A stretch of DNA of 38,930 nucleotides from a virus. Taxonomy: Duplodnaviria > Heunggongvirae > Uroviricota > Caudoviricetes. Positions 18,001-24,000 of the stretch are shown one piece after another. A program made the position numbers. Numbering within the stretch: the first letter of the stretch is position 1; every line of letters starts with the position of its first letter. The DNA lies in IMG/VR virus record IMGVR_UViG_2545824708_000026, one strand, 5' to 3'.

Positions 18001-21000
18001 CATCCAACTCCGCAAGGTATGTTGTAGCTTGAGTAATCAATCTCTTTAGGATCTTTGATGTCTCGCATCTGTATTGCAAAACGCCTCATCATGTAGCCAT
18101 AGCGAACAGCAGAAAGGATGTCGTCATTTAGCTTGACGATCTTCCCGTTCTCATCGCGGTGATACAGACGAAACTCTTCAAAGAATGGCTCGCAGGTGTT
18201 AAATACCTTGAAACGACCGTCGAGCATCATGTCGCGTATCTCTGCTATCCCGGGTTCGACCGCATTACCTCCATCAGGCCATGTTGCATGATCTGGCAAC
18301 ATGTCGAACCCAGCTTCGGCGTATTGTTCCTTGAGCTGAGCGCCGCCTCCCTTTTCGTGCTGATGCCCGTCATGAGGCCAAGCCGTAGGGGTGTTTTTGC
18401 TCCATGCTTTAACAGCACTCCATGCCTCTGTCGCCTTCTTCTGTTTGGCCTTCCAGACGCGAGAAAGATAAATCACGTCCTCGTCTTTATCCCACCAAAG
18501 CTGGATATGTGCCTGTGGGTGATCCCATCCGAAGTCCATTGCATTGATGACGTAGAAGTGATCAGGACACTCGAACGGCTGACACTTAATCGTCTCTTCC
18601 GGTATCTGGAAGATTCGACCACTACCCATCGTAGGAATACCGCGAGCACGCGCCTCTCTCTCATGCTCGGGATAGGATGCGATGATTTGCTCTTTCTGCT
18701 CGTCGGTGTAGTGCTCAGCGTCGTAGATGGTCATGTTGACCACTTTCTGCGACTTGCTGGGATTCTTCAGGAACTTGGTAACAACGTCAGACATCCCCAT
18801 CAGCGGGGTAAACGTCAGAATTGAGAATTGCCCGTATTTGTTGGTACGGGTAAGCCCTTCGCCATAAATGCTGTATGGTGGTTCTTCGTCAAACCACACG
18901 CCGTGGATTGTGTCACCCTGCCAGCGAGCACGGCCTTGCGAGTATGGTTTGAAGTAGCAGATTGAAATGCCATCTTCAACGCCATCAGCCGTGTGATGCT
19001 TAACCAGAAGATGATCAACAAGGTTCGGAAAGAAAGGAGACTTCTTCCAGCTAATGATGTCTTCTTTCGGTATGGAACCGTAGCCAGGCTCATCATTCTC
19101 TTCGATACGACCGCACAGGATGCGTTGAGTCGTTTTGGTTACAGTCTCGTTTGTCTCTCCACCAATCCAGAAGCCAACAGGCTCAAAGAAACGCTTCCCT
19201 TTCCCCCCCCCGCCATATTTACCATCAGCCGGATAGCCTTTTGTTCCCGGATAACGCCCAGTAAGGTGAAACGCGACTTCAGCAGCACCAGTAAATGACT
19301 TACCAAGCTGGTTACCAGCCATAAAACATCGCTCTGGATAGTCATGTCCGGCGTCGATGAACTCACGCTGTTTGCTGTATGGCGTAAATTCATATAGCAG
19401 GTGTGTGTTCCGGTAGTTCTCTTCTTCTTCGAGTAGCTCGAGCAACTCGATTTGCTCTTCGTCGCTCAGGTTATCAAGAATCGCGTCCAGTTCCACGGTT
19501 GAATAGCTCCTTGATACGAGAGCGTCGCTTATCGCGATCTCCCTTATCAGGTGTCACGTCTTCAACTTGCGACTGCTCTTTGAGGCCCAAATCACGGGCG
19601 ATGATGTTAGCGTTGAGAAGGTCAGCGGCTGCTCCAGAGAATTTCTGGTCGTAGATGATGTCTTCCGCTCGTGATGTGACGTCAGAAAAACCTTCCATTG
19701 ACCGGAAGGTTCCCCATGTTTGCCTGGTGATATCAAGGAAGGTGCACAATCCTGAAATAGTCATGGCTCGCATCTTAGGGACATTAGCCTTAATTATTTC
19801 TCCCTGATATGAAAATACCTTACCCTCCCATAGCGGGTTATCATCAGCCCACTCGAAGTATTCACAACAAGCAGCCCACAGCGCCTCAGGCGATTCGAAT
19901 TTCGGGTTTCGCCCATGACTACTGCGGGCCTCCCAAAATCGGTTGCCCTTTGGTGCCGCCATATTCATCTCACTTATTTGTTATTTCAGGCTGATGACTC
20001 TTTCGCGCTTTCAATCAGTGACTGCTTCAGCAATTCGAGTGCGCCAATCGCCTCGCATAAACTGATTTCACCATCGTAATCATGGATGACGCTTTCCAGC
20101 CTCTCGTATAGCTCTTGAGTAATTGGGAATTTCTTCTCCTTACCCAAATTGATTACGCGGCTCACATCATGCTCCGGTGGTGAACAGGTCTAACGCTTCC
20201 TTCGATTTACGCACCGCTTCGATAGTGCGGGTCGTGATATCTGAATTAGCGCCGCCTGACTGGAAGTGAATTTTGAATAGCTCAAGCTTCAGTTCGTCAG
20301 TGCCAATGAACTGAAATGCTTCCTCTGCGGCTGCGTTCTGGTTCATGACCAGCTTGTAAATCTCTAACTGGAATTTCTGTTCTTCAGTCATGGGAATAAT
20401 CTCTGCCATTGTTGGCTCCGTTTATCCGTTAAAAGGGATATCAGTTAAGTTATCCCGTGTAGGGTATAAGCCATTGTCGAGACCACTCATTGAATGGCCT
20501 CTGCAATAACCGATGTCTTTCCATCAGTCCGCCACCACAAAGAATCTTTTTTGCCATAAGGCTGGAGGTTCATCTTTCAGTGGCTGCCAGTGTTATTTCC
20601 CCACTTTCTGGCTTGGGTTGTTTCGCTGTACTGCCGTAACTGGTTACCCAGAATAAATCCGGTTTCATTATCAAGCCCACCAGTAGATAGGCTTTGTAAT
20701 GCCTACATGGTTAAATGATTTGCCAGTCTTCAGCCATCAGGTCGCCAATGGATGGAACCCATGTAGCAAGGCGGTTCTGTGAGTTTTTCAATACAAGCGT
20801 GTCATTGAAAGTTGGCTCGCCAACATATTCGCCAAAGCCATAACCCAACGCAGACGCTAATTTTTCCCCTTTCACGAGATAAACAAACTGGTCTTTCCCA
20901 TTCCATCCTGCCCGCTGCAAACTTTTGCCCTGTTTTAACGCTTCCATGGCAAGGCCGAAACTTAGTCCTGATACCGGACGATAAGCCTTTTCGAATACTT

Positions 21001-24000
21001 CTTTTGGACTCCAGCTAACGTAGCCATCAAAGCGATCGGTGTTAGGTTTCCCGCCATCCAGATATTCAACCAGATAGCCTTCGTCCTCGCCGTTTTCTCC
21101 GGCAGGAAGCTGCCAGCCACGAAAATCGTTATATGCCTGTCTCGTCATCGGAAAGGCGTTAATCAGTTTTACGCCAATATGCTGGGTCATAAAATTACCT
21201 ATAGAGTTGGGAATAAAAAGCCCCGCATCGCGAGGCTCATTAAATGGACTTTGTGATTTGCAAAAAAATTATTTCAGGCACTGAGTCCTGATGTACTCCT
21301 GCAGGTAGTTAACCTGCGCGGTTATCCTGTCGATTCCACTTCTGAGACGGTAATAATTGAGTTCAGCATCTGCTGTAAGTCTTGGGCTTTCTCCATCGCC
21401 CATGCTGCTGGCTCCGGTCGTTGACTTTGCACAGGTGGCGGCGACTTGCAGGCGCTTACGACCAGCAGAAACATCAGCACGGAGGCTTTCGATAGTCGCG
21501 TTAGCATCAGCAAGCTCCTTTGTGTATCTGGCGTCGAGTTCTGCTACATCACGTTGACGCTTCTGCATGTCAGCAATTGTGGATGCGGCCTTATCGCGCT
21601 GCTCTTTGTAGGCGATTGCGTTATCACGGTAATGATTAACAGCCCATGACAGGCAGACGATGATGCAGATAACCAGAGCGGAGATAATCGCAGTTACTCT
21701 GCTCATTGCTGCCCCCACAAACAGACTTCACGCTCAATCTCACGGCGAGTCATCAGCCCTTTCCATTGCTTACCGCCAGCGTATGTCCAGCGACGTAGCT
21801 GGTCACATGCGCCCTTGATATCGCCCTGGTTGATTTTGCGAAGAAGCGTCGATGTTCTGAAATTTCCTGCGCCCACGTTATAGACGAACGAATAAAGAGC
21901 GCCGCGCGTTGTTTCCGGTATATCGACTTTGATGTACGGGTTAATTTGTCTGGCGACCGTGGCAAGGTCTTTATTCAGGAGGGCTTTGCATTCTGCTTCG
22001 GTATACGTTTTACCGAGCATGATGTCTTTTCCGGTGTGTCCGTGACATACAGTCCATACACCAACAATATCTTTGTATGGTATGTAGCTGACACCTTCCA
22101 GACCATCGTTACCACTTGGGCCAGTGATTAACACAGATGCTATAGCAATAGCCCCGCCACTTATCGCCGCTATTACGCTATTTCGTAGTGCCGGTGACAT
22201 TGCCATTCAATCTGTCCTCGCGCTCTTTGCGCTTGTAGTACCAGTTGATGCCAAATGTGCCGACAGTACAAAGAATACCAATGATGACAGCCCAGTCATT
22301 CAGGGAGAGAATGCCACCCATCGCAGTCAGTCCTCCGAAGCTGTAACTGAACCATTCTCTGATTTTGTCCATACGGTACATGCTCTACCCCTTCATTGAG
22401 GGGATTTGCTCTATTTAATTAGGAATAAGGTCGATTACTGATAGAACAAATCCAGGCTACTGTGTTTAGTAATCAGATTTGTTCGTGACCGATATGCACG
22501 GGCAAAACGGCAGGAGGTTGTTAGCGCAACCTCATGCCACCCGCTTTCACGAAGGTCATGTGTAGAAGGCCGCAGCGTAACTATCACTGATGAATTCAGG
22601 ATAGCCAGTGGCTACGGCTCAGTTATGGTGCTGGTTAACGGACTTGAACCGCTACCCATTCGCTTACAAGGCGACTGCTCTACCATTGGAGCTAAACCAG
22701 CATGTTTGGCGGGACAGCGTGGACTCGAACCACGATAAGAAGGTTAACAGCATTCCGTAATGACCTTTATACGACTGACCCAAATAAAAAAAGCCACCGT
22801 TGCAACTTAAGAGTCACTAACGGCAGCTTATGCGAATAGTGTTGCTCATTTGCTCAATGATGTCAACACGTTCTATGCTACATGTTTAATTTTCTCTACA
22901 CGTTTCCGGTTTTTAAACGCACTATCCAGAACTGGGTAAATCATAAACAACGAAGCATTGAGGATTTCGTCAACTTCCCGGCGACAGGTTGCGAGCGATG
23001 GTTTTTGAATACGCCCGCCGCCCCGGCATAACATCTTGCGAGGTCTTGCGACACGATGATAGTAAGATGCAATGGCATGCTTGGAAGATCCATGAGCGTA
23101 GTAGCTGAGGAGGATGCCAAAGGCTTTCTTGTCAATGCACATGACGGAATCGACGACCTGAGAAATCAACATTCCATCATCATCATTACACATTGGCCTT
23201 GTCATAACTCTTCCCGGCTCTACGCTCTCCATGAACTTCGCTATTACGCTGCTCATGCGCTTTTCCAGACGACCTGAATAAACCCATGCGCCCCACAGTT
23301 CAAGCCAGCCATTCAGCCAATCGTGCTGTTCTTTGGTGAGGTTTAGTTCTCTTATGCTCATCGTCTTCCCCTCTTGCCCTGTTTGACCATCAGGACGCCG
23401 TTAACTATTACGTGACGCTCGCCTTTTCTGTCTCGGTTGTACTTGAGCACTGTTCCTCTTGCGCAGGAAAGCATCCTCGCCACTTCGGTCTGATTGCCTC
23501 GTGTCTAGATAAGAAGCTCTGGTATCGTTTGAATTGTGGCGTTCATACGTTCTCCAGTTCGGTGATTTTTATTCCAAGCCGTCCGCCTGGTACTTTCACA
23601 CCACGAATTACGCGAATGTCATCGAATTGCTCGTCGTCTTCCGCAAATCCGGCGTGGATAAGGGAGTCGAGTAAACCTTTCAGGATGTTGTCGAGGTCGC
23701 GGCGGCGGGAGTCTGGAACGTCTGCGATGACTTTGATGCGGAGTCGTGATTTGGTGAAAATGTCTAACTTAAGTTGGCGGATGATTTGCTGAACGTCTTT
23801 TCGGTATTTCTGGCCTTTATCGCTGATGTAGTATTGGCTTCCCCGTCTTCGCCAGTAGGTATTCACCGACGGTGGGTACGGAAGCACAAACTGATATTCG
23901 TTCATTGGACAAACACCCTCCCATTGTTAACCAATTTTTTAAGGGTAAGCACAATGGCCCGATCCATTTCAGCCCTTCGCTCTTCCCTGCTCATATCTCT

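What the first reader, a model, noticed from the sequence alone, without database searches (positions are those of the whole stretch)
20711..21190. Possible Tad2-like (DUF2829) anti-Thoeris protein between the lysis cassette and terminase
The 159-aa protein contains FGLAMEALKQGKSLQRAGWNGKDQFVYLVKG, which resembles the signature I associate with DUF2829, the family that includes the Thoeris anti-defence protein Tad2 (a signalling-molecule sponge). The gene sits with two small ORFs in the Rz-to-terminase interval, a common place for accessory genes. The family assignment is from memory of the motif and is unverified.
Basis: inference. Interest (0 to 1): 0.55.

Follow-up and report, generated by a model that had tools for sequence, protein, structure and literature searches.

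The report
Two-domain Tad2 immune-signal sponge gene
This phage gene really does encode a Tad2-type "sponge" that most likely soaks up a bacterial antiviral alarm molecule, and it also carries a conserved, unnamed front domain that recurs fused to four different sponge families and whose function is still unknown.

Summary

They form a separate domain with no Pfam family that is more conserved than the Tad2 half. Of 149 cluster representatives, 101 fuse it to known sponge domains (Tad2, Acb4, Sequestin). It is also homologous to the N-terminal domain of RyR Tad, which a 2026 preprint showed to be a domain-swapped dimeriser with no anti-Thoeris activity alone.

Within P22-like phages the N-domain stays constant while the Tad2 ligand-binding core is swapped as a cassette. 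The Rz-to-terminase slot is a hotspot for sponge genes.

Sequestration, ligand identity and the N-domain's role are inferred, not shown.

The parts
20711..21190 (-). Complete gene: 159 codons plus a stop codon at 20711-20713, encoding the two-domain N-domain + Tad2 protein
   Evidence: ORF list. 100% identical to the protein encoded by Escherichia phage HZ41. The 98%-identical E. coli prophage gene is annotated as a 159-aa DUF2829 protein, WP_000191869.1. PHROG 872 matches full length, E 1.9e-69.
20969..21190 (-). N-terminal domain, residues 1-74 (beta-beta-alpha-beta-beta-alpha). It is an unnamed module associated with sponge proteins. Conserved motifs are G6-x-K8, R17/Y20/N21/R24/W26, G38-x-L-V-E-Y-x-D-G-G-x-x-N50 and G56-Y-x-S-W-S-P62.
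20714..20968 (-). C-terminal Tad2 (DUF2829/PF11195) domain, residues 75-159, of the SPO1 type with a short beta2-beta3 insertion
20735..20944 (-). Exchangeable cassette, about codons 83-152: the ligand-binding core of the Tad2 domain. It is flanked by sequence near-identical between sister phages.
   Evidence: HZ41 and Kapi1 DNA are about 100% identical from the RBS to about codon 82, about 50% identical across this stretch, and identical again over the last 7 codons and the 3' flank. The proteins are 100% identical over residues 1-81 and then diverge, with a 14-aa insertion. A third cassette is present in phage Huey. 14 of 60 homologues have N-domain identity >=90% but C-domain identity <60%.
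21197..21200 (-). AGGT, a weak Shine-Dalgarno-like motif 7 nt upstream of the ATG
   Evidence: Read directly from the sequence. It lies within the block conserved with Kapi1.
21218..21238 (-). GC-rich hairpin followed by a T-run (terminator-like), between the Rz stop codon and the gene's start
   Evidence: Terminator scan: 9 pairs, 6 of them GC. A similar hairpin is present in Kapi1. Function not tested.
21269..21718 (-). Context: Rz spanin, the last gene of the lysis cassette and the upstream boundary of the hotspot
   Evidence: Pfam Phage_lysis, E 8.8e-37.
20167..20409 (-). Context: DUF2560 gene, the conserved downstream boundary of the hotspot; the small terminase follows at 19474-19968
   Evidence: Pfam DUF2560, E 1.1e-43. 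GP3_package, E 8.6e-31. The same gene order is seen in L001, Kapi1, phiKp_30 and Huey.

Best explanation
The gene encodes a two-domain phage counter-defence protein. SHOWN: the C-terminal half (residues 75-159) is a genuine Tad2-family domain of the SPO1 type. INFERRED: like SPO1 Tad2, it assembles into a homotetramer whose inter-protomer pockets (W96/N97 from one chain, W144/S147/D150 from another) bind and sequester a TIR-made ADP-ribose-derived alarm molecule. The most likely ligand is 1''-3' gcADPR (3'cADPR) of type I Thoeris. Sequestration would keep the ThsA effector off and let the phage replicate. SHOWN: the N-terminal half (residues 1-74) is a separate, highly conserved small beta-rich domain, homologous to the N-terminal domain of RyR Tad. 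INFERRED from the RyR Tad crystal structure: it acts as a strand-swapped dimerisation module that pairs or stabilises the attached sponge domains and is not itself the Thoeris-signal binder. The gene sits in a recombination hotspot between Rz and DUF2560/terminase. There the N-domain and the last seven codons serve as constant anchors, and the Tad2 ligand-binding core is exchanged as a cassette. This would let related phages change signal specificity quickly.

For: Binding site: the published SPO1 contacts W25, N26, W73, D79 and S76 map to W96, N97, W144, D150 and S147. All are present and are invariant or >=90% conserved in 61 homologues.

Family function: 4 of 5 diverse Tad2 homologues inhibited Thoeris.

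N-domain: the profile-sequence match to CB1 gp68 residues 5-65 has probability 96%, E 4.3e-9, and the pairwise match has E 7e-6. Foldseek finds a RyR-domain protein of Yersinia phage TG1, E 7.9e-5, TM 0.78. The preprint's crystal structure shows that N-domain as a domain-swapped dimer. There the N-fragment alone was inactive against type I Thoeris and the C-fragment alone was sufficient.

Association with sponges: 101 of 149 representatives fuse the N-domain to Tad2, Acb4 or Sequestin. All three are experimentally established sponges.

Cassette exchange and hotspot.
Against: No binding, oligomerisation or phage-challenge data exist for this protein or for any full-length orthologue, including N4 gp49. 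Five of the ten published SPO1 contact or water-coordinating positions differ: I63->L134, T65->N136, D67->Q138, H71->A142, T78->G149. These include the residues that touch the adenine, so ligand preference may differ. Tad2 family members variously bind His-ADPR, N7-cADPR, cUMP/cCMP or cyclic dinucleotides. The only tested N-domain (gp68_N) is a divergent member that lacks the invariant D-G-G-x-x-N loop, and it was assayed against only one defence system. The number of invariant polar residues in the N-domain is more than a pure dimerisation role would predict. The sister allele Kapi1_043 is the most highly expressed prophage gene during lysogeny, which is not obviously what a lytic-cycle counter-defence gene needs.
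Confidence: 0.68

Rival explanations
1. The mechanism is the same (a Tad2 sponge), but the physiological ligand is not 3'cADPR. This allele may mainly sequester another immune signal, such as His-ADPR (type II Thoeris), N7-cADPR (type IV), cUMP/cCMP (Pycsar) or a CBASS cyclic nucleotide.
For: The Tad2 family showed 'remarkable functional diversity' across 18 tested members. MoTad2 binds His-ADPR and cUMP in separate pockets, and Tad2_71 binds N7-cADPR. Here the adenine-contact and water-coordinating residues differ from SPO1 (T65N, D67Q, H71A, T78G). Cassette swapping at this locus implies selection for changing specificity.
Against: This allele is the closest E. coli relative of SPO1 Tad2. 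The alignment is gapless and includes the short beta2-beta3 insertion. SPO1 Tad2 bound gcADPR but none of the cyclic nucleotides tested. Binding of cyclic dinucleotides in HgmTad2/SptTad2 needs a 35-41-residue insertion that this allele lacks. The gcADPR site is reported as predicted non-functional in only about 1% of Tad2 proteins.
Confidence: 0.25
2. The N-terminal domain is itself an active anti-defence module rather than a passive dimeriser. It could be a further, unrecognised sponge whose pocket forms across the swapped dimer, or a binder of a conserved host immune protein. The protein would then be a two-warhead inhibitor, like the known Tad2-Acb4 and Acb4-Sequestin fusions.
For: The guilt-by-fusion logic that led to Sequestin applies here more strongly. 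The domain is fused to Tad2, Acb4, Sequestin and RyR Tad, in nearly every order, including between two sponges as in Acb4-N-Sequestin. That study searched only Pfam families, and this domain has none. Many polar or aromatic residues are invariant or nearly so: K8, R17, N21, R24, W26, E32, D36, E42, D45, N50, S59, W60, S61. These lie mostly on helix 1 and two long loops. The domain is more conserved than the adjoining ligand-binding domain, 75% against 51% mean identity. Stand-alone copies exist.
Confidence: 0.22
3. It is primarily a lysogeny-expressed 'moron' that alters host physiology or the prophage's standing in the cell. It could do this by buffering host nucleotide second messengers or silencing the lysogen's own signalling immunity before induction. 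On this reading it is not a lytic-cycle counter-defence factor.
For: The sister allele Kapi1_043 sits in the identical slot with an identical N-domain and upstream region. It is the most highly expressed Kapi1 gene in lysogens under all conditions, and its host has no Thoeris. A terminator-like hairpin separates the gene from Rz, as expected for an autonomously expressed insert. HgmTad2-type proteins bind c-di-GMP at sub-nanomolar affinity, and the Kapi1 cassette is of that long-insertion type.
Against: No sigma-70-like promoter was found on the coding strand upstream of the gene. The HZ41 cassette is the SPO1 short-insertion type, which did not bind cyclic dinucleotides. Virulent N4-like phages carry full-length orthologues in their anti-signalling hotspot, so a role specific to lysogeny cannot be the general one.
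Confidence: 0.08
4. It is an anti-CRISPR of the AcrIIA7 type, as some phage records annotate its homologues.
For: Homologues in phages Huey and phi1_146050 are labelled 'anti-CRISPR protein'. There is weak sequence similarity to AcrIIA7 entries 8KBI and 9KZR (E 4e-6 and 1.6e-5, first helix only), and a fold match to 8KBI.
Against: AcrIIA7 is HgmTad2. Its Cas9 inhibition could not be reproduced in vitro or in vivo, whereas its sponge activity was demonstrated structurally. The original Tad2 study reached the same conclusion. From general knowledge, not tested here: E. coli carries type I CRISPR systems, not type II-A.
Confidence: 0.02

Closest known systems
Bacillus phage SPO1 Tad2 (Gp34.65; PDB 8SME/8SMF/8SMG, 8WJE)
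   Same: The C-terminal 85 residues align without gaps (E about 3e-26), including the short beta2-beta3 insertion with its G-[FY]-G-F-G-E-Y motif. The fold is the same, and W25/N26/W73/S76/D79 are conserved.
   Different: SPO1 Tad2 is a stand-alone 89-aa protein, whereas this one has a 74-aa N-terminal domain. Five secondary contact positions differ (L134, N136, Q138, A142, G149). The host phylum and phage type also differ.
Escherichia phage N4 'gp49' (ABK54417.1 in EF056009.1), with orthologues in many N4-like phages
   Same: Full-length orthologue with the same two-domain architecture, 44% identity over 159 aa. Pfam Tad2-like covers residues 83-159. It lies in an anti-signalling hotspot next to an Acb4 gene and the virion RNA polymerase.
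   Different: It belongs to a virulent phage and sits in a different genomic slot. Its Tad2 insertion is shorter. It is also uncharacterised, as far as the held literature shows.
Kapi1_043 of Escherichia phage vB_EcoP_Kapi1 (PMC12922286)
   Same: Same slot in a sister P22-like phage. The N-domain, the first helix of the Tad2 domain, the last 7 codons and the flanks are identical. The authors hypothesised it to be Tad2-like.
   Different: The Tad2 core is a different cassette, with a 14-aa longer insertion that aligns full length to HgmTad2/SptTad2, the type that binds cyclic dinucleotides.
RyR Tad (Pectobacterium phage CB1 gp68; bioRxiv 10.64898/2026.06.04.730250)
   Same: Its N-terminal domain is homologous to residues 1-69 here (hhalign probability 96%, E 4.3e-9). 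The layout is the same: an N-domain followed by a gcADPR-sponge domain. It is encoded in an anti-signalling hotspot.
   Different: Its sponge domain is an all-helical RyR Repeat12-like fold, not Tad2. Its N-domain lacks the D-G-G-x-x-N loop and several residues that are invariant in the main family.
HgmTad2 / AcrIIA7 and SptTad2 (PDB 8KBI-8KBM, 8WJC, 8WJD)
   Different: These proteins have a 35-41-residue insertion forming a second pocket for cyclic dinucleotides. The HZ41 allele lacks that insertion, and sequence similarity is limited to the first helix.
Multi-sponge fusion proteins (Tad2-Acb4 of Pasteurella phage Pm86; Acb4-Sequestin of Pseudomonas phage Ab09 gp59)
   Same: They share the principle of stringing small oligomeric anti-signalling domains in one polypeptide. 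The N-domain of this protein occurs inside such arrays, for example Acb4-N-Sequestin and N-Tad2-Sequestin.
   Different: In those proteins every domain is a demonstrated sponge. Here the second domain has no demonstrated ligand.

Membership tests
Tad2 (Pfam PF11195 / DUF2829) | Matches the family HMM above the curated gathering score, over the whole domain | tested here: met
   78.3 bits against a cutoff of 25, E 6.4e-22, profile positions 2-73 of 73, residues 77-159.
Tad2 (Pfam PF11195 / DUF2829) | Significant sequence similarity to experimentally validated Tad2 proteins | tested here: met
   SPO1 Tad2 E 3.1e-26 to 3.4e-26, full length and gapless. ModTad2 E 1.6e-18. Tad2 8V3E E 1.9e-18.
Tad2 (Pfam PF11195 / DUF2829) | [quoted passage not shown] | tested here: met
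Tad2 (Pfam PF11195 / DUF2829) | Principal gcADPR-binding residues (SPO1 W25, N26, W73, D79; also S76) | tested here: met
   They map to W96, N97, W144, D150 and S147, all present. Across 61 homologues W96 is invariant and the others are >=90% conserved. The equivalent HgmTad2 mutants W21A/N22A and S90A/T92A/D93A are the published gcADPR-site mutants.
Tad2 (Pfam PF11195 / DUF2829) | Secondary contacts to the adenine and to ordered waters (SPO1 I63, T65, D67, H71, T78) | tested here: not met
   They are L134, N136, Q138, A142 and G149 here. This bears on ligand preference, not on family membership.
Tad2 (Pfam PF11195 / DUF2829) | Homotetramer with pockets formed between protomers | not testable with these tools
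   Only monomer prediction was available. SEC-MALS, mass photometry or a multimer prediction is needed.
Tad2 (Pfam PF11195 / DUF2829) | Binds and sequesters a TIR-derived signal and inhibits Thoeris in vivo | not testable with these tools
   An experiment is required. Among diverse homologues, 4 of 5 were active.
Sponge-associated N-terminal domain (N-domain of RyR Tad; no Pfam or other name found) | Homology to the N-terminal domain of CB1 gp68 | tested here: met
   BLASTP E 7e-6, 34% identity over 67 aa. hhalign probability 96%, E 4.3e-9, gp68 residues 5-65. Foldseek hit to the related RyR protein of Yersinia phage TG1, E 7.9e-5, TM 0.78.
Sponge-associated N-terminal domain (N-domain of RyR Tad; no Pfam or other name found) | Domain-swapped dimer, with beta1 donated to the partner's sheet | not testable with these tools
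   Reported for gp68 by crystallography. Here the monomer model places beta1 (residues 2-5) in cis, followed by the invariant G6-x-K8 turn that could act as a hinge. That structure is not in the PDB copy.
AcrIIA7-type anti-CRISPR | Inhibition of a type II-A Cas9 | not testable with these tools
   Others could not reproduce this activity for AcrIIA7/HgmTad2. Sequence similarity here is weak and limited to the first helix.
Lockin / Acb5 (considered for the N-domain) | Lockin: a curved beta-rich hexamer, absent from INPHARED phage genomes. Acb5: a tetramer with conserved R10/W38/H61, mainly in actinobacterial phages. | tested here: not met
   The N-domain is found in 137 INPHARED records, mostly phages of Proteobacteria. 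It has no conserved histidine.

The most novel reading that the evidence does not exclude
Residues 1-74 are the founding example, in this window, of an unrecognised family of anti-defence domains. The domain is about 70 aa, forms a strand-swapped dimer, is conserved across phages of Proteobacteria, Bacteroidota (crAss-like) and Firmicutes, and would have its own conserved target. That target could be an immune or metabolic nucleotide bound at the dimer interface, or a conserved host immune protein. Phages would bolt the domain onto interchangeable sponge cassettes (Tad2, Acb4, Sequestin, RyR Tad) to build multi-target inhibitors. A corollary is that the roughly 38 unassigned fusion partners among 149 representatives would be a source of further unknown sponge families.
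Probability: 0.22. Interest if true: 0.75.

Novelty: new variant of a known kind. Interest (0 to 1): 0.45.

Why it matters
The Tad2 assignment only adds one more member to a large, well-studied family, and RefSeq already labels these genes DUF2829. Three other points carry the value.

First, the protein carries a conserved domain that has no family name and escaped the published Pfam-based fusion screen. It is fused to all four sponge folds examined here, and it is present in the model phage N4. A simple set of split-protein experiments could show whether it is a scaffold or a new inhibitor.

Second, there is a clean natural example of cassette exchange. It is confined to the ligand-binding core of a sponge and sits between constant anchors. 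This suggests how phages retune signal specificity, and it gives ready-made chimeras for specificity mapping.

Third, the Rz-to-terminase interval of P22-like phages is a hotspot for sponge genes. It is a practical place to look for new counter-defence genes in enterobacterial prophages.

Tried and rejected
1. Pfam scan of residues 1-74 alone at E<=10 found nothing. A profile search of all PDB sequences also found nothing meaningful.

3. The AFDB50 fold library was unavailable.

4. Single-linkage BLAST clustering of the fusion-partner segments collapsed into one cluster of 114 because of multi-domain proteins. I replaced it with domain HMMs.

5. The promoter scan found no sigma-70-like site on the coding strand upstream of the gene, so the lysogenic expression seen for Kapi1_043 has no explanation here.

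6. I checked whether the N-domain equals Lockin or Acb5 and rejected this on published descriptions. Identity with Tad3-Tad8 could not be tested because that paper is not held. The indirect argument is that authors who annotate Tad3 in the same hotspots call this domain 'a fold with unknown function'.

7. The RyR Tad crystal structure is not in the PDB copy, so no direct superposition was possible.

8. Supplementary tables listing the 18 tested Tad2 homologues are not held. I could not determine whether any two-domain member has already been assayed.

9. The anti-CRISPR reading was rejected on literature grounds.

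
Full report
OBSERVATION. The ORF listing shows an ATG-to-stop frame of 159 codons at exactly 20711..21190, on the minus strand. The plus-strand translation of the same interval is full of stops. A weak AGGT lies 7 nt upstream of the ATG. A GC-rich hairpin with a T-run (21238..21218) lies between the Rz stop codon and the gene.

The neighbours were verified by Pfam. Upstream are antiterminator Q (22873-23361), two tRNAs (Thr and Asn), an HP1-type holin, lysozyme and Rz (21269-21718). Downstream are DUF2560 (20167-20409), a 59-aa ORF, the gp3-type small terminase (19474-19968) and the large terminase. The window is essentially Escherichia phage HZ41 (OM022251.1). That record is an unannotated P22-like genome and encodes a 100% identical protein.

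THE C-TERMINAL HALF IS A GENUINE TAD2 DOMAIN. Residues 77-159 match Pfam PF11195 (Tad2-like, formerly DUF2829) at 78.3 bits against a cutoff of 25, covering profile positions 2-73 of 73. Against all PDB sequences the best hits are Bacillus phage SPO1 Tad2 (8SME, 8WJE; E about 3e-26), aligned over its whole length without a gap. ModTad2 (9EIB) and another Tad2 (8V3E) follow at about 2e-18. SptTad2 and HgmTad2/AcrIIA7 match only over the first helix.

The Tad2 discovery paper lists W25, W73, N26 and D79 as the main gcADPR contacts. T78, I63 and T65 contact the adenine. N26, D67, H71, W73, S76 and D79 hold ordered waters. With the offset taken from the alignment (SPO1 residue number + 71), W96, N97, W144, S147 and D150 are conserved. 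The other five positions are L134, N136, Q138, A142 and G149. Across 61 homologues W96 is invariant, and N97, W144, S147 and D150 are at least 90% conserved.

Membership of the Tad2 family is therefore established. The ligand is inferred. The insertion between beta2 and beta3 is of the short SPO1 type. SPO1 Tad2 bound gcADPR but no cyclic nucleotide, and binding of cyclic dinucleotides in HgmTad2 and SptTad2 requires a 35-41-residue insertion. I therefore favour 1''-3' gcADPR (3'cADPR) of type I Thoeris. Two cautions apply. Family members have been shown to bind His-ADPR, N7-cADPR and cUMP/cCMP. The adenine-side contacts also differ here.

HOW ORDINARY THE TAD2 CALL IS. RefSeq annotates the 98%-identical E. 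coli prophage gene as 'DUF2829 domain-containing protein'. A 2026 paper on phage Kapi1 reached the same hypothesis for Kapi1_043, which occupies the identical slot. It reported that gene as the most highly expressed Kapi1 gene in lysogens, in a host without Thoeris. The gene is rare in E. coli. The N-domain DNA is present in 45 of 5,426 complete genomes, and the HZ41-type Tad2 core in 37.

THE N-TERMINAL HALF IS A SEPARATE, UNNAMED DOMAIN. Nothing above covers residues 1-74. PHROGs hit them separately from the Tad2 half, tblastn finds them alone in other phages, and Pfam finds nothing even at E<=10.

The domain is more conserved than the Tad2 half, with mean identity to the query of 75% against 51%. 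G6, K8, P29, G38, L40-V-E-Y43, D45-G-G47, N50, G56-Y57, S59, S61-P62 and Y70 are invariant in the close family. Most of these are at least 90% conserved in a wider set.

An exhaustive search of 1.84 billion cluster representatives with residues 1-74 found 1,566 proteins at E<=1e-3. The domain sits at the N-terminus, the middle or the C-terminus of proteins of 72-370 aa.

ITS PARTNERS ARE SPONGES. A Pfam census of the best 149 representatives found Tad2-like in 51, crAss001_48 (PF21825) in 38 and Phage_gp49_66 (PF13876) in 22. WDGH, DUF7307 and an HNH/AP2 endonuclease each appeared once. PF13876 is Acb4, a cGAMP sponge. PF21825 is Sequestin, a 3'cADPR sponge. Sequestin was discovered because it is fused to Tad2 and Acb4, in a screen that queried Pfam families only.

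Domain coordinates show bead-on-a-string arrays: Acb4-N-Sequestin, N-Tad2-Sequestin, N-Sequestin and Acb4-N. Local HMMs reproduced the Pfam counts (53, 39 and 24) and gave the full table. Of 149 proteins, 101 fuse the N-domain to at least one of the three sponge domains. Another 38 carry at least 45 aa of unassigned sequence. Ten are stand-alone or truncated. The unassigned partners are mostly unrelated singletons with no Pfam match.

LINK TO A CHARACTERISED PROTEIN. A June 2026 preprint on N4-like phages describes an anti-signalling hotspot between the primase and the virion RNA polymerase. The hotspot holds Tad2, Tad3, Acb4 and Sequestin genes. [quoted passage not shown]

I retrieved gp68. 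Its residues 4-63 align to residues 1-67 here (34% identity, E 7e-6). A profile of the N-domain family matches gp68 residues 5-65 with hhalign probability 96%, E 4.3e-9. Its C-terminal part is a Pfam RyR domain. Independently, Foldseek against viral models links the N-domain model to a RyR-domain protein of Yersinia phage TG1 (E 7.9e-5, TM 0.78), and also to small stand-alone proteins of 65-92 aa.

According to the preprint, gp68 residues 1-86 alone had no activity against type I Thoeris, while the RyR-like fragment alone was sufficient. In the crystal structure the N-domain is a domain-swapped dimer whose beta1 strand completes the partner's five-stranded sheet. That structure is not in the PDB copy.

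This is the only experimental information on the domain, and it supports a dimerising accessory role. The support is limited. gp68_N is a divergent member that lacks the invariant D-G-G-x-x-N loop and several conserved polar residues. It was also tested against one system only.

N4 ITSELF CARRIES THE SAME PROTEIN. The gene annotated gp49 in EF056009.1 is a full-length orthologue (44% identity over 159 aa; Tad2-like at residues 83-159). It lies directly after an Acb4-family gene and next to the virion RNA polymerase. The two-domain form is thus present in a model phage but, as far as the held literature shows, untested. The supplementary lists of tested Tad2 homologues were not available.

CASSETTE EXCHANGE AND A P22-LIKE HOTSPOT. 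Kapi1_043 is 100% identical to the HZ41 protein over residues 1-81 and then diverges, with a 14-aa insertion. At the DNA level the two phages are about 100% identical from the ribosome-binding site to about codon 82. They are about 50% identical across the Tad2 core and identical again over the last seven codons and the 3' flank.

The Kapi1 core aligns full length to SptTad2 and HgmTad2, the long-insertion type. Phage Huey carries a third core behind the same N-domain. Among 60 homologues, 14 have N-domain identity of at least 90% but C-domain identity below 60%.

The slot itself is variable. Most P22-like relatives have Rha or KilA-N genes there. phiKp_30 has Rha plus an Acb4-family gene, and Huey has N-Tad2 plus an Acb4-family gene. 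The Rz-to-DUF2560 interval therefore behaves as a hotspot for sponge genes, analogous to the N4-like one.

MECHANISM AND CONFIDENCE. Shown: gene, context, Tad2 family membership, fold, conservation of the core binding residues, the independent N-domain and its homology to RyR Tad's N-domain, its fusion partners, and the cassette mosaic. Inferred: tetramer formation, sequestration of 3'cADPR, inhibition of type I Thoeris, and strand-swapped dimerisation of the N-domain.

I put about 0.97 on 'is a Tad2-family protein' and about 0.68 on the full statement in the best explanation. A different principal ligand (0.25) is a refinement rather than a contradiction. The most interesting alternative is that the N-domain is itself an active anti-defence module (0.22). 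Its fusion pattern and its invariant polar residues argue for this. The negative gp68_N result, the rarity of stand-alone copies and the lack of a nucleotide-binding fold argue against. A lysogeny-specific moron role (0.08) is prompted by the Kapi1 transcriptome but does not fit virulent N4-like carriers. The anti-CRISPR annotation carried by some homologues is not credible.

VERDICT. As a Tad2 homologue the finding is ordinary. The added value lies in three things: the unnamed N-terminal domain associated with sponge proteins, the cassette exchange, and the hotspot. I rate it a new variant of a known kind, interest 0.45.

Noticed in passing
window 24170-24679 (-) and 23902-24180 (-): There is an HNH_3 + NUMOD4 homing-endonuclease-like ORF of 169 aa in the nin region. 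Directly downstream is a 92-aa ORF that matches only the C-terminal part (positions 87-145 of 171) of DUF968/NinG-like proteins. This suggests the endonuclease gene has been inserted into, or has truncated, that gene. The E. coli prophage relative has pseudogene fragments at the equivalent place.
   Followed up: partly
P0194 (354 aa): In this N-domain + Tad2 protein, an HNH_3 + AP2 endonuclease module lies between the N-domain (residues 2-73) and the Tad2 domain (264-353, two stretches). It may be a homing endonuclease gene that landed at the same domain boundary where cassettes are exchanged, or a fused gene call.
   Followed up: no
window 22626-22701 and 22707-22781 (-): tRNA-Thr(TGT) and tRNA-Asn(GTT) lie between antiterminator Q and the holin, as in Kapi1 and the E. 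coli prophage relative.
   Followed up: yes
L003:2109-2480 (+) and L003:2480-2962 (+), phage N4 EF056009.1: The gene numbering is confusing. The Pfam family named 'N4 Gp49' (PF13876 = Acb4) matches the gene annotated gp48 in this record. The gene annotated gp49 is the N-domain + Tad2 protein. Literature statements about 'N4 gp49' or 'N4 acb4' need care.
   Followed up: yes
P0134, P0138, P0149, P0165, P0198, P0237 and other 'N-x' proteins: About 38 of 149 N-domain proteins carry fusion partners of 45-200 aa with no Pfam family, and these are mostly unrelated to each other. Single cases carry WDGH (P0241) and DUF7307/Pam3 gp33-like (P0243). By the fusion logic they are candidates for further unknown anti-signalling domains. 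Some look like frameshifted Tad2 fragments from metagenome assemblies.
   Followed up: partly
window 21191-21268 (-); L002, upstream of Kapi1_043: HZ41 and Kapi1 differ at the end of Rz but share the hairpin-T-run and the 30 nt preceding the ATG. Kapi1_043 is reported as the most expressed prophage gene in lysogens, yet no sigma-70-like promoter was detected on this strand. The promoter responsible is unidentified.
   Followed up: partly
window 24717-25439 (-): A Rha + KilAC (ANT) antirepressor-type gene lies in the nin region of HZ41. In most P22-like relatives a Rha-family gene occupies the Rz-to-terminase slot instead.
   Followed up: no
P0074 (278 aa) and P0092 (228 aa): These are longer relatives in which the N-domain + Tad2 unit is preceded by one or two copies of a roughly 55-aa helical-looking repeat (…LYRxECDxxGIHExRFxSWxELDSxAKRLWIETAEQQLG…) of unknown identity.
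   Followed up: no
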